Origin: a phage
NCBI GenBank assembly: GCA_037431425.1
Contig: GCA_037431425.1_4129.5
Length of the DNA stretch: 21,685 nucleotides
Direction: 5' to 3' (one strand)
Below, one piece after another: positions 1,633 through 3,535 of this stretch (within the stretch, counting starts at the first letter, position 1; every line of letters begins with the position of its first letter). The notes under the pieces are model-generated. The model worked only from the letters and a program-made list of their open reading frames with translations, had not been told where the DNA came from and did not search any database. The translations under genes and the position numbers were made by a program.

Positions 1633-2028
1633 ATGAATTGTTCCTGGATGGAAATTGTAAAATCTCTAATATCAACACATGATATGGACTTACCTGAACA
1701 CCTAGTTATTAATAGATGGTACTATCCATATCCAGATAACCGTTGTGTTGGAATTGGATTTTTTATTAATGAAAAATCTCAATATATTGTATTAATTGAA
1801 GATTATACAAAAACCAATATTGCGTTCTCAATTGAGTTGAATGTAGATCACATAAAATACTACACCAATAAAATGGATGAAGACGATGGTGATGTTATAA
1901 TTCCAGCAGAAATAGACGAAGCTTCATTTTTTCAGTTATCATTAATTCATAATGTATCTGATATTACTTATGATAATGTGAAAGACCTTTTTATATTGTA
2001 CAATAAACTGTATAATTACTTTATATGA
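1633..2028 (+). CDS. hypothetical protein (small acidic, early-region type)
   Basis: 131-aa ORF with GGAG 7 nt upstream. C-terminal acidic/aromatic region loosely resembles the downstream small ORFs. Confidence 0.55.
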   Translation: MNCSWMEIVKSLISTHDMDLPEHLVINRWYYPYPDNRCVGIGFFINEKSQYIVLIEDYTKTNIAFSIELNVDHIKYYTNKMDEDDGDVIIPAEIDEASFFQLSLIHNVSDITYDNVKDLFILYNKLYNYFI

Positions 2029-2040
2029 TTGAGGTGTAAG

Positions 2041-2412
2041 TTGAGAAATACATTAATTAAAGTTAATTTATCACATTTCGACCCATATCAGAAATATGAA
2101 GAAAGTCGAAGATATAATATTAATGAATATTTCACAATATATTTCAATAGAACATATAGCATGATCATCATTACTATTTGTAATCATATAAAAATTTGTA
2201 TAACAAAAGACACAATAACTTTATACATTCAAGGCAAAGAAACTGATATTCCAACAGATTTGGATGAAGATGGATATGCTCAAGACGAATTCTTGAGAGA
2301 TCACTTGTTGATTGAGTACAGCACTTATGCATTGATTAATTTCTACAAAGTAAATTACATTAAGTGGTTGTCTGGTGAATGTGATGATGGTATAATAGAG
2401 TATAATATATAA
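2041..2412 (+). CDS. hypothetical protein
   Basis: ORF track 2029..2412 (TTG start). A TTG at 2041 has GAGG (2031-2034) 6 nt upstream; ATG 2161 is an alternative. Start uncertain. Confidence 0.35.
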   Translation: MRNTLIKVNLSHFDPYQKYEESRRYNINEYFTIYFNRTYSMIIITICNHIKICITKDTITLYIQGKETDIPTDLDEDGYAQDEFLRDHLLIEYSTYALINFYKVNYIKWLSGECDDGIIEYNI

Positions 2413-2423
2413 TGAATACAATT

Positions 2424-2537
2424 ATGCTTGAAGAAGATTTGGGTGTTTATTAACAAGAAATCGACGTGAACAAAGAACCAAAATACAAGCCTAATGGCTT
2501 CTGGGAACGTCTCTTTGATTGGCTGATGGGGGAGTGA
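2424..2537 (+). repeat. copy A of a duplicated ~110-bp cassette (small ORF interrupted by in-frame TAA)
   Basis: Shares GAAGAAGATTnGGGTGTTT, an identical 17-mer GGCTTCTGGGAACGTCT (2496-2512) and GATTGGyTGATGGGGGA with copy B at 3556-3669. Encodes MLEEDLGVY-stop-QEIDVNKEPKYKPNGFWERLFDWLMGE. Its 3' end supplies the G-rich SD of the next gene. Confidence 0.6.
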
Positions 2538-2722
2538 TGGAATATACAATATGTGCTATTATTTGTATCTTAGCTTTAATCGGTGGTGTTGGTGTGATGG
2601 TTTATTGTGATGCAGAACCCAGTAATGAAGTAGGTACAACCATCACATTTAAACCTGGTGTTAAAATTAATGATACCTATTGCTACAATCCAAACACAAA
2701 CCGCTATGAGATTTGTTTATGA
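2537..2722 (+). CDS. small Cys-rich membrane protein (hypothetical)
   Basis: ORF track 2519..2722. ATG 2537 follows GGGGGAG (2528-2534). Predicted TM helix (ICAIICILALIGGVGVMVY) plus four further Cys. Confidence 0.4.
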   Translation: MEYTICAIICILALIGGVGVMVYCDAEPSNEVGTTITFKPGVKINDTYCYNPNTNRYEICL

Positions 2723-3126
2723 GAACATTCAACATTGTTCATATAATTGAACCGATTGCAGAACATATGAAAAACATAAGTAATAACGAGTCAGGTTTTT
2801 ACTTCAATTTAGATAAACTTCATCGTTATACCAATGTATCTAGTTTTAATCGTGCTAAGAGACTTTATATCCGTATACACAACCTATGGTACAGTGATGA
2901 TACGTTGATGATAGATATCACTGTTGATGAAGACATAAAATTAAGATATATTGACGATTTTAAATCAGATGATATTCGTTCTGGTTCATTACCAATTGAT
3001 GCTTCATATGAAGAATATCTGCAATATCAGTTCATTGATGACACATTTGGCTTTGACTTTGAACTATATAATAGTATAATGAACGTATACCATATATATG
3101 AAAGGCATTTGAATGGACATTCGTAA
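2719..3126 (+). CDS. hypothetical protein, tandem paralogue 1
   Basis: ORF track 2713..3126. ATG 2719 overlaps the upstream stop as ATGA. C-terminus YQFIDDTFGFDFELYNSIMNVYHIYERHL is paralogous to the next ORF. Confidence 0.55.
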   Translation: MRTFNIVHIIEPIAEHMKNISNNESGFYFNLDKLHRYTNVSSFNRAKRLYIRIHNLWYSDDTLMIDITVDEDIKLRYIDDFKSDDIRSGSLPIDASYEEYLQYQFIDDTFGFDFELYNSIMNVYHIYERHLNGHS

Positions 3127-3535
3127 AATACCAAATTTCAACAGCACATTAAGGTTCTTTTCTGAACATGAAATCAGTACTGAAAGACGTGGTTTAGTTA
3201 CATATAATCAACATCGTGTTATGTACACTAATAATTTTCAGGGTACTGTACGAATAAAATTTCGTAATGCGTTAGAAGAGAATGATGAATTGTTAATTTT
3301 ACTAAGAAAAAGTAAGATTGAATTGACATACGCAACTCACCATATTGAAAGTGAGTTGATGTGGCACACCCTATCAAAAAAAGAAGGTTCATTGCCAGTT
3401 GTTGATAATGGTCCTGAAACACTTGATCAGTACATGTTCATTGATGATACATTTAGTATTGACTATCCATCATTTCAGTGTATACTAGATATACATGCAA
3501 AATATTACGACCGTCTACGTGATAGATTAATTTAA
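3113..3535 (+). CDS. hypothetical protein, tandem paralogue 2
   Basis: 140-aa ORF with GAAAGG upstream. C-terminus YMFIDDTFSIDYPSFQCILDIHAKYYDRL matches the preceding ORF. Confidence 0.6.
   Translation: MDIRKIPNFNSTLRFFSEHEISTERRGLVTYNQHRVMYTNNFQGTVRIKFRNALEENDELLILLRKSKIELTYATHHIESELMWHTLSKKEGSLPVVDNGPETLDQYMFIDDTFSIDYPSFQCILDIHAKYYDRLRDRLI

What the first reader, a model, noticed from the sequence alone, without database searches (positions are those of the whole stretch)
1633..3535. Array of small paralogous early-type genes
ORFs 2719-3126 and 3113-3535 are clear tandem paralogues (YQFIDDTFGFDFELYNSIMNVYHIYERHL vs YMFIDDTFSIDYPSFQCILDIHAKYYDRL) and overlap by 14 nt. ORFs 1633-2028 and 2041-2412 carry a weaker version of the same acidic/aromatic C-terminal pattern. 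Rapidly diversifying small paralogue families in phage early regions often encode host-takeover or anti-defence factors.
Basis: partly seen in the sequence, partly recalled or inferred. Interest (0 to 1): 0.5.

Follow-up and report, generated by a model that had tools for sequence, protein, structure and literature searches.

The report
Jumbo-phage cluster of small paralogous genes
Four small acidic genes of unknown function in an E. coli jumbo phage belong to phage-specific multigene families and are gained and lost as cassettes between close relatives, which is real but ordinary for jumbo phages.

Summary
The window comes from an Asteriusvirus jumbo coliphage, 99.1% identical to phage ph0011 over bases 1200-4800. 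The four ORFs are real genes under purifying selection (dN/dS 0.15-0.9).

ORF3 (2719-3126) and ORF4 (3113-3535) are true paralogues. BLASTP gives E=3e-8, hhalign gives E=4.7e-12, and both fall in phrog_20693. They overlap by 14 nt.

ORF2 (2041-2412) joins the same family through a metagenomic intermediate, P0025, which matches ORF2 at E=1e-7 and ORF3 at E=3e-9.

ORF1 (1633-2028) is not a direct relative. It is a dispersed copy of a separate family of at least 30 members, arrayed at 30.7-56.3 kb in ph0011. A leave-one-out HMM places ORF1 there at p=3.8e-12. That family's motif, EExxFQxSL[VI]xD, only weakly resembles the ORF2-4 motif.

Cassettes [ORF2 + 41-aa gene] and [ORF3 + ORF4 + 40-aa gene] are present or absent among relatives. 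"Rapid diversification" and "early" are not shown.

Function is unknown. Host-factor binding is my inferred best guess. Interest is low to moderate.

The parts
1559..1587 (+). Sigma-70-like promoter (TTGACA, 17-nt spacer, TATACT; 11 of 12 matches) overlapping the 3' end of the HPF gene, upstream of ORF1.
   Evidence: Found. The -35 and -10 hexamers are conserved in most relatives aligned. Function has not been shown, and the total number of promoter-like sites in the region does not exceed the shuffle expectation.
1588..1615 (+). Conserved GC-rich hairpin followed by a T-run (AAAGGGACAGA-TTAAT-TCTGCCCCTTTT), which looks like an intrinsic terminator. Together with the promoter it forms a composite promoter/terminator element.
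   Evidence: The stem is invariant in 9 aligned loci, including the distant metagenomic contig L016. It folds at -13.3 kcal/mol, z=-1.96. It occurs only once in the window. UE-S1 annotates a terminator at the equivalent position.
1633..2028 (+). ORF1: 131 aa, pI 4.4, phrog_36582. It is a dispersed member of a multigene family of at least 30 members carrying the motif EExxFQxSL[VI]xD. It is present in every Asteriusvirus record hit.
   Evidence: An HMM built from 27 array members without ORF1 scores ORF1 at 32.5 bits, p=3.8e-12. Iterative searches converge on 27 and then 30 array genes. dN/dS is 0.15-0.59.
2041..2412 (+). ORF2: 123 aa, TTG start with a GAGGTG Shine-Dalgarno sequence, pI 4.8. 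It is an accessory member of the ORF3/ORF4 family, present in only 9 phage records.
   Evidence: P0025 matches ORF2 at E=1e-7 over 75 aa. The alignment is A3. It has no PHROG or Pfam hit of its own.
2412..2537 (+). Pseudogene copy of the 40-aa gene at 3547-3669, with a premature TAA at 2451-2453 (codon 14). It forms the second half of the [ORF2 + 41-aa] cassette.
   Evidence: Translation. The gene is intact in Turkey3, Turkey5 and WPEC5, and carries the same nonsense codon in ph0011. Direct repeat 2425-2538 against 3557-3670 is 75% identical over 114 nt.
2537..2722 (+). 61-aa Cys-rich protein with an N-terminal hydrophobic segment (phrog_4189). It is conserved in all relatives, and its stop overlaps the ORF3 start (ATGA).
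   Evidence: The membrane-anchor reading comes from inspecting the sequence only.
2719..3126 (+). ORF3: 135 aa, pI 5.1, phrog_20693. It exists as two alleles in the genus, about 90% and about 50% identical to the window copy.
3113..3535 (+). ORF4: 140 aa, pI 6.1, phrog_20693. It is a paralogue of ORF3 and overlaps it by 14 nt. The predicted fold is a helix, a six-strand antiparallel sheet and two helices.
   Evidence: AlphaFold2 gives pLDDT 87.2 and pTM 0.84.
3547..3669 (+). 40-aa highly acidic gene (pI 4.1, phrog_34272) that ends the [ORF3 + ORF4 + 40-aa] cassette, directly upstream of the CCA gene.
   Evidence: dN/dS is at most 0.21.
1247..1579 (+). Conserved left flank: an HPF/RaiA-type ribosome-associated protein.
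   Evidence: Pfam PF02482 at 2.5e-10. Annotations.
3671..4783 (+). Conserved right flank: CCA tRNA nucleotidyltransferase. It starts 1 nt after the stop of the 40-aa gene, with no terminator-like site between ORF1 and its end.
   Evidence: Annotations. PF01743 on the orthologue in L016. Junction sequences. Terminator scan.

Best explanation
Shown: the locus is a tightly packed, apparently co-transcribed accessory island. It sits between two conserved translation-related genes (HPF/RaiA and the CCA-adding enzyme) of an Asteriusvirus jumbo coliphage.

It holds small, acidic, aromatic-rich proteins that lack a signal peptide by inspection. They come from two lineage-specific multigene families. 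ORF2, ORF3 and ORF4 form one family with the signature LP-x(4-5)-E-x3-Q-Y-x-F-[IV]-[DE]-D-T-F-x-[IFL]-D-[YF]. ORF1 is a dispersed copy of a tandem-array family of at least 30 members with the motif EExxFQxSL[VI]xD.

The genes behave as cassettes. [ORF2 + 41-aa gene] and [ORF3 + ORF4 + 40-aa gene] are independently present, absent or degraded in close relatives. The alleles are mosaic.

In both families the conserved part is the C-terminal pair of helices. The N-terminal beta-sheet region varies.

Inferred: these are non-enzymatic binding proteins. A conserved helical hairpin packs on a variable beta-sheet, and the variable surface recognises host or defence factors. Duplication and cassette exchange would then adjust the repertoire to the host. 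Co-transcription with the tRNA-repair CCA enzyme suggests, weakly, a role in the same host-conflict context.
For: - Identity and synteny of the locus.
- Real genes under purifying selection, 2-5 times more relaxed than the flanks.
- ORF3/ORF4 paralogy.
- ORF2 membership through P0025.
- P0025 occupies the slot right after HPF, as a single copy, in a distant contig.
- ORF1 in the large array family.
- The array lies in a block that also encodes an ADP-ribosyltransferase, a protein kinase and a DksA-like protein.
- Cassette presence and absence, and the pseudogene.
- Mosaicism: ORF1 has dS 0.07 to PBECO4 while its flanks have dS 0.7-0.9.
- Acidic pI values of 4.4-6.1.
- Tight gene spacing and overlaps, with no + strand terminator-like site between ORF1 and the end of the CCA gene.
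- Orthologues gp289c-gp291c are absent from the phAPEC6 virion proteome: (PMC7247149).
- Confident ORF4 fold with no catalytic-family match, similar to uncharacterized proteins of RaK2, GAP32, CBB and fHe-Yen9-03.
- No Pfam, NCBIfam, PADLOC or PDB sequence match.
Against: - There is no functional, expression or interaction data for any member, so the binding role rests on analogy.
- dN/dS is below 1 everywhere, so there is no sign of an arms race at whole-gene level. Site-level tests were not run.
- The invariant polar residues in ORF3/ORF4 (E102, Q106, D111, D112, T113, D117) could mark a catalytic or metal-binding site rather than a scaffold.
- The Salmonella-phage genomes that lost ORF3/ORF4 also show fragmented neighbouring genes. 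Those losses may therefore reflect assembly quality or general decay, not host-specific selection.
- The ORF1 structure model is unreliable (pLDDT 46.6).
Confidence: 0.4

Rival explanations
1. The proteins serve the phage's own processes rather than acting on the host. They could be accessory factors or chaperones for translation or tRNA metabolism, working with the adjacent HPF-like and CCA-adding proteins, or regulators of phage gene expression.
For: - ORF1-4 are packed tightly with the CCA gene and follow HPF directly.
- A family member (P0025) keeps this exact slot in a distant contig.
- ORF1 is present in every Asteriusvirus record hit.
- Selection is purifying.
Against: - ORF2, ORF3 and ORF4 are dispensable in natural isolates that keep HPF and CCA.
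- A core accessory factor is not expected to exist as alleles only 50% identical, or as 30 or more paralogues.
Confidence: 0.22
2. The genes are largely neutral, selfish or hitch-hiking ORFan cassettes of a hyperplastic region. They would be kept by recombination at repeated small-gene or promoter/terminator junctions, with little or no current function.
For: - Cassette indels, a pseudogenised 41-aa copy, and a mobile-looking 355-aa zinc-finger (DUF4379) gene inserted at the same spot in A4 and TH47.
- Mosaic dS values.
- The composite promoter/hairpin element resembles the PeSL elements described for T4-type phages (PMC4122927).
Against: - dN/dS of mostly 0.15-0.6 across many lineages shows that the protein sequences are constrained.
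- The motifs are invariant across paralogues only 26% identical.
- The ORF4 fold is predicted with confidence.
Confidence: 0.15
3. Together with the co-translated 61-aa hydrophobic Cys-rich protein, ORF3 and ORF4 form an envelope-associated module, for example for superinfection exclusion or lysis timing.
For: - The stop of the 61-aa gene overlaps the ORF3 start (ATGA), and ORF3 and ORF4 overlap by 14 nt, so translational coupling is likely.
- A LysM-lysozyme gene lies 1.5 kb upstream.
Against: - The 61-aa gene is conserved in phages that lack ORF3/ORF4, namely Turkey5, JNE01 and L016. It therefore does not depend on them.
- ORF1-4 have no hydrophobic segments (GRAVY -0.12 to -0.53).
Confidence: 0.08
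4. The similarity is compositional chance, or the ORFs are not genes.
For: The direct ORF1/ORF2 comparison is not significant. The region is AT-rich, at 29-32% GC.
Against: Refuted for ORF2-4, and for ORF1's own family. Purifying selection and conservation in more than 30 genomes argue the same way.
Confidence: 0.01

Closest known systems
phrog_20693 (PHROGs v4, unknown function)
   Same: ORF3 and ORF4 both match the profile full length, at E=1.6e-60 and 1.9e-53. P0025 matches its C-terminal part at E=3.3e-11.
   Different: ORF2 does not hit the profile and joins only through P0025. The PHROG carries no functional information.
Tandem multigene family of Asteriusvirus genomes (phrog_13866, 15629, 34600, 33987, 32253 and phrog_36582), arrayed at ph0011 30.7-56.3 kb
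   Same: ORF1 shares the C-terminal EExxFQxSL[VI]xD module (p=3.8e-12 in the leave-one-out test). The proteins have similar sizes (about 100-200 aa) and an acidic, aromatic character.
   Different: ORF1 lies about 68 kb from the array, next to HPF. ORF2-4 have a related but distinct motif (Q-Y-x-F-I-D-D-T-F). The array HMM scores them only at p=4.5e-5 to 0.056.
Paralogue-rich gene content of RaK2-like jumbo phages
   Same: [quoted passage not shown] The ORF4 model resembles uncharacterized proteins of about 130-160 aa from RaK2, GAP32, CBB and fHe-Yen9-03.
   Different: Those matches are structural only (Foldseek E=1.7e-3 to 2.8e-2, TM 0.35-0.6, 8-18% identity). No sequence-level link was shown.
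PeSL (promoter-early stem-loop) cassettes of T4-type hyperplastic regions
   Same: A composite sigma-70-like promoter plus stem-loop lies at the edge of a variable island of ORFan genes with indel polymorphism (PMC4122927, PMC2839356).
   Different: There is only one copy in the window. The indel boundaries here coincide with the repeated 40/41-aa genes rather than with repeated PeSLs. These are not T4-type phages.
MAM33/p32/gC1qBP acidic proteins

Membership tests
phrog_20693 | Significant full-length match to the family HMM. | tested here: met
   ORF3 matches at 1.6e-60 (residues 1-134) and ORF4 at 1.9e-53 (residues 1-139). ORF2 has no hit. ORF2 is placed in the family only through P0025.
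ORF2/3/4 family as defined here (alignment A3) | Conserved C-terminal signature LP...E...Q-x-x-F-[IVL]-x-D...[DE]-[YF] in the same register, plus pairwise or transitive E below 1e-6. | tested here: met
   Alignment A3 has invariant P78, Q89, F92 and D95. ORF3/ORF4 score E=3e-8. P0025 scores 1e-7 against ORF2 and 3e-9 against ORF3. ORF1 is inconclusive: hhalign P=0.022 in the same register, and 1 of 300 shuffles reaches that score.
Large Asteriusvirus array family (EExxFQxSL[VI]xD) | Significant score against an HMM built from the array members without the query. | tested here: met
   ORF1 scores 32.5 bits, p=3.8e-12. The ORF1 HMM finds array genes directly at E=2e-4 to 6e-3 in a database of 228 ORFs. 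ORF2-4 are not met at that level (p=4.5e-5 to 0.056), although ORF2, ORF3 and P0025 rank above the unrelated window ORFs.
Any curated protein family or solved structure | A match above threshold in Pfam-A, NCBIfam, PADLOC or PDB sequences. | tested here: not met
   There were no hits above the curated cut-offs. The best PDB profile hit had E=0.39.
PeSL mobile regulatory cassettes | A composite early promoter plus stem-loop. | tested here: met
   TTGACA, 17-nt spacer, TATACT at 1559-1587, followed by the conserved hairpin at 1588-1615.
PeSL mobile regulatory cassettes | Multiple similar copies that flank variable ORFs and coincide with indel breakpoints. | tested here: not met
   The hairpin motif occurs once in the 21.7-kb window. 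The breakpoints lie at gene junctions next to the 40/41-aa repeats. The rest of the genome was not scanned for the motif.
Phage early / host-takeover genes | Transcription early in infection from host-RNAP promoters. | not testable with these tools
   Only a promoter-like consensus is available. The Asteriusvirus papers I searched by keyword had no matching transcription data.
Virion (structural) proteins | Detection in purified particles. | tested here: not met
   The phAPEC6 orthologues gp289c, gp290c and gp291c are not in Table 1, which lists 62 virion proteins (PMC7247149).
Beta-sliding-clamp binding motif (QL[SD]LF) proteins | An exposed, flexible Q-L-[SD]-L-[FL] peptide that binds the clamp. 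| not tested
   This is a lead from memory only. ORF1 has QLSLI and the array consensus is Q-x-S-L-[VI]. In the models the motif lies inside a predicted helix, which argues against it.

The most novel reading that the evidence does not exclude
ORF1-4 and the array of at least 30 genes would form one structural superfamily, more than 34 genes and about 6% of the phage's genes. Each member would be a diversified binder built on a conserved C-terminal helical hairpin, together forming a phage-encoded repertoire that neutralises variable host defence or translation and tRNA-targeting factors. In this reading the ORF2/3/4 cassettes next to the CCA tRNA-repair enzyme act against tRNA-directed defences.
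Probability: 0.15. Interest if true: 0.65.

Novelty: new member of a known kind. Interest (0 to 1): 0.3.

Why it matters
If these proteins bind host factors or defence proteins, Asteriusvirus phages would carry a large, cassette-exchangeable repertoire of binders. That would be a source of new anti-defence or host-takeover proteins, and it could help explain host range in jumbo coliphages being considered for therapy.

As it stands, the result mainly tidies the annotation:
- It joins ORF2 to phrog_20693.
- It assigns ORF1 to a large multigene family.
- It gives a confident fold for ORF4.
- It defines the cassette structure of the island between the HPF and CCA genes.

Paralogue families of unknown function are already known to be common in RaK2-like jumbo phages.

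Tried and rejected
- Direct BLASTP of ORF1 against ORF2, ORF3, ORF4 and P0025 gave nothing significant.
- The word-indexed homology searches returned only close Asteriusvirus orthologues.
- The exhaustive HMM search of 1.84 billion representatives returned 5 hits, of which only P0025 was a new family member.
- The IMG/VR and metagenome locus scans returned one locus each: phage 121Q itself, and a metagenome contig with an identical match that I did not examine further.
- Pfam, NCBIfam, PADLOC and PDB sequence searches found no family.
- AlphaFold2 of ORF1 failed (pLDDT 46.6), and its Foldseek search was uninformative.
- The afdb50 library was unavailable.
- Ten other window ORFs were scanned against PHROGs for further members, and none was found.
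- The array HMMs did not recruit ORF2-4 at the inclusion threshold.
- Keyword searches of the Sharanji, fEgEco12 and phAPEC6 papers for transcription or paralogue information on these genes found nothing.
- "Rapid diversification" was tested with pairwise dN/dS and rejected at whole-gene level.
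Full report
**Context.** Bases 1200-4800 of the window are 99.1% identical to Escherichia phage ph0011. They are 85-91% identical to PBECO4, 121Q and about 30 other Asteriusvirus jumbo coliphages of roughly 350 kb.

The finding lies between an HPF/RaiA-type gene (1247-1579; PF02482) and a CCA tRNA nucleotidyltransferase gene (3671-4783). Downstream come NUDIX, glutaredoxin and macro-domain genes.

All four ORFs sit at the stated coordinates and correspond to CDS annotated as hypothetical proteins in ph0011.

**ORF3 and ORF4.**
- BLASTP gives 40% identity over the C-terminal 42 residues, E=3e-8.
- Profiles built from orthologues align over 84 columns (hhalign probability 97.6%, E=4.7e-12).
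- A full-length alignment shows 26% identity, with an invariant G-x-LP...E...QY-x-FIDDTF-x-x-D block.
- Both proteins hit the same PHROG, phrog_20693.
- At the DNA level only a 49-nt stretch is still recognisable, at 73% identity. The duplication is therefore old.
- The 14-nt overlap is real. In addition, the upstream 61-aa gene overlaps the ORF3 start (ATGA).

**ORF2.** ORF2 has no PHROG or Pfam hit. Direct comparison with ORF3 is only suggestive (BLASTP E=0.12; hhalign P=0.003).

An exhaustive profile search of 1.84 billion representative proteins found just five hits. One was a new 125-aa protein, P0025. P0025 matches ORF2 at E=1e-7 (31% over 75 residues) and ORF3 at E=3e-9. It hits phrog_20693 at 3.3e-11. 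ORF2 is therefore a diverged member of the ORF3/ORF4 family (alignment A3).

P0025 comes from a 19-kb metagenomic contig with the order lysozyme, HPF, P0025, 60-aa gene, CCA, NUDIX, glutaredoxin. A single family member occupies the slot right after HPF.

**ORF1.** ORF1 is not detectably similar to ORF2, ORF3, ORF4 or P0025 by BLAST.

Its profile aligns with the ORF2-4 profile in the same register, but weakly. hhalign gives P=0.022 over 64 columns, and 1 of 300 column shuffles reaches that score.

ORF1 did give weak hits to many other PHROGs. I therefore fetched the first 100 kb of ph0011.

An iterative HMM search seeded with ORF1 orthologues converged on 30 annotated + strand genes at ph0011 30.7-56.3 kb. 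No spurious ORF and no other window gene was recruited. The shared module is EExxFQxSL[VI]xD followed by a helix.

An HMM built from 27 array members without ORF1 scores ORF1 at 32.5 bits, p=3.8e-12. ORF1 is thus a dispersed copy of a large multigene family whose main array lies about 68 kb away.

**Are the two families related?** The evidence is suggestive, not conclusive.
- The array HMM ranks P0025 (p=8.6e-5), an ORF3 variant (4e-4), ORF2 (0.006-0.008) and the window's ORF3 (0.018) above all 57 unrelated window ORFs, whose best score is 0.02. ORF4 is not distinguished.
- phrog_17453 is hit by the 121Q-type ORF3 (1.1e-4), by an array gene (1e-4) and by ORF1 (0.002-0.006), all in the same register.
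- In both families the conserved Q-x-x-[LF]-[IV]-x-D lies in the first of the two C-terminal helices.

I put common ancestry of all four ORFs at roughly 70-80%. What is demonstrated is two families.

**Structure.** AlphaFold2 on the ORF3/ORF4 alignment gives a confident ORF4 model (pLDDT 87.2, pTM 0.84). It has helix 9-18, six antiparallel strands across 28-94, then helices 101-111 and 118-130.

Foldseek against BFVD finds the ORF3 orthologue (E=1.2e-4). It also finds a series of uncharacterized proteins of about 130-160 aa from other Asteriusvirus genomes and from RaK2, GAP32, CBB and fHe-Yen9-03 (E from about 1e-4 to 3e-2, TM up to 0.73). The fold therefore seems to be spread among RaK2-like jumbo phages.

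The ORF1 model is unreliable (pLDDT 46.6), although its order of secondary-structure elements is the same. Its fold search was uninformative.

**Population genetics.** Counts from the phage-record searches:

| Gene | Records with a hit |
|---|---|
| ORF1 | all 35 Asteriusvirus records hit |
| ORF2 | 9 |
| ORF3 | 30 |
| ORF4 | 30 full length, plus 3 remnants |

- Turkey5 and JNE01 have ORF1, ORF2, the 41-aa gene and the 61-aa gene, but lack ORF3, ORF4 and the 40-aa gene.
- PBECO4 and 121Q lack ORF2 and the 41-aa gene.
- The Salmonella SD-* phages keep only C-terminal remnants of ORF4, with different deletion end points. One is an in-frame fusion, P0024. Their neighbouring genes are also fragmented, so I treat these losses with caution.
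- The island is therefore built from two cassettes, each ending in a copy of a 40/41-aa acidic gene. In the window and in ph0011, the copy after ORF2 (2412-2537) carries a nonsense codon.
- ORF3 has two alleles, about 90% and about 50% identical to the window copy, in phages whose CCA genes are about 90% identical.

Pairwise dN/dS values:

| Gene | dN/dS |
|---|---|
| ORF1 | 0.15-0.59 |
| ORF2 | 0.30-0.89 |
| ORF3 | 0.17-0.40 |
| ORF4 | 0.14-0.42 |
| HPF | 0.04-0.18 |
| CCA | 0.05-0.12 |

The two ORF2 values of 0.89 rest on almost no substitutions.

Selection is therefore purifying but relaxed. The 50%-identity allele has dS of 1.0-1.3, so it is old. ORF1 has dS of 0.07 to PBECO4 while its flanks have dS of 0.7-0.9, which points to recombinational mosaicism. 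"Rapidly diversifying" is not supported at whole-gene level.

**Expression signals.** A sigma-70-like promoter (11 of 12 matches) at 1559-1587 is followed by a GC-rich hairpin with a T-run at 1588-1615. The hairpin is invariant across relatives, including the distant contig.

From ORF1 to the end of the CCA gene the genes are separated by at most 12 nt or overlap. No + strand terminator-like site intervenes. This fits one operon.

The element resembles the PeSL composite promoter/terminator motifs of T4-type hyperplastic regions (PMC4122927). However, it occurs only once in the window.

I found no transcription data in the Asteriusvirus papers I searched. "Early" therefore remains an inference.

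The phAPEC6 orthologues are absent from the published virion proteome.

**Interpretation.** Shown: small acidic proteins (pI 4.4-6.1) that are not found in virions. They come from lineage-specific multigene families and are organised as exchangeable cassettes in an operon with a tRNA-repair enzyme.

Inferred, with confidence of about 0.4: they are non-enzymatic binders. A conserved C-terminal helical hairpin would carry a variable beta-sheet surface directed at host or defence factors.

The main rivals are a phage-internal accessory role (0.22), largely neutral hyperplastic-region cargo (0.15) and an envelope module with the 61-aa protein (0.08).

**Novelty.** The ORF3/ORF4 relationship is already implicit in PHROGs. 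Abundant paralogues are documented for RaK2-like phages (PMC3622015).

The new points are the placement of ORF2 and ORF1, the fold, and the cassette map. I rate this as a new member of a known kind, with interest 0.3.

Noticed in passing
window 2412-2537: This is a pseudogene copy of the 40-aa acidic gene at 3547-3669, with a GAA-to-TAA nonsense change at 2451-2453. ph0011 carries the same change. The gene is intact in Turkey3, Turkey5 and WPEC5. The two copies form a 114-nt direct repeat at 75% identity.
   Followed up: yes
window 1559-1615: A composite sigma-70-like promoter plus GC-rich hairpin with a T-run lies between HPF and ORF1. The hairpin is invariant even in the distant metagenomic contig L016. 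It looks like a PeSL element, but only one copy is present in the window.
   Followed up: partly
ph0011 (L019/L020) 30.7-56.3 kb: About 30 tandem + strand genes of 100-200 aa share the motif EExxFQxSL[VI]xD, and ORF1 of the window is a dispersed member. The block also holds a putative ADP-ribosyltransferase. The remaining 100-348 kb of the genome was not scanned.
   Followed up: partly
ph0011 (L019) about 24.7-31.3 kb: A run of about 30 back-to-back ORFs of roughly 70 aa, many overlapping by 4 nt and all annotated as hypothetical. It looks like another tandem paralogue array.
   Followed up: no
window 14536-15222 and 15315-16091: Two adjacent tail-tube-like genes are paralogues: 30.5% identity over 236 aa, E=1e-31 to 1e-36. 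The first hits phrog_4542, annotated as tail tube protein.
   Followed up: partly
L007 (phage A4) 3706-4773; L005 (TH47) 2453-3520: A4 and TH47 carry an extra 355-aa gene between the 40-aa gene and CCA. The A4 copy has a treble-clef zinc-finger domain (DUF4379). It may be a mobile or homing-type insertion at the same hotspot.
   Followed up: partly
L009 (Salmonella phage SD-1_S14) 2477-2662; L006 (SD-15_S21) 2433-2534: Two different deletions remove ORF3 and most of ORF4. One creates an in-frame fusion of the 61-aa protein to the ORF4 C-terminus (P0024). Neighbouring genes in these records are also fragmented.
   Followed up: partly
window 1633-2028 compared with its flanks: ORF1 is nearly identical to PBECO4 and 121Q at synonymous sites (dS 0.07), while the adjacent HPF and CCA genes have dS of 0.7-0.9. 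This indicates a recent recombinational exchange of ORF1 alone.
   Followed up: partly
window 2537-2722: A 61-aa Cys-rich protein with an N-terminal hydrophobic segment (phrog_4189) is conserved in every relative, including L016, and is translationally coupled to ORF3. Its function is unknown.
   Followed up: no
window 1247-1579, 3671-4783, 4890-5291, 6121-6600: The window holds a cluster of translation, RNA-repair and ADP-ribose related genes: HPF/RaiA, the CCA-adding enzyme, NUDIX, and a weak macro-domain match (Pfam E=0.003, below the curated cut-off, though annotated as macro domain in ph0011). This is typical of host-conflict modules in jumbo phages.
   Followed up: no
window 8398-10392: A 664-aa ORF lies in the most AT-rich part of the window (GC 0.27-0.30, strongly positive AT skew). 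It was not examined.
   Followed up: no
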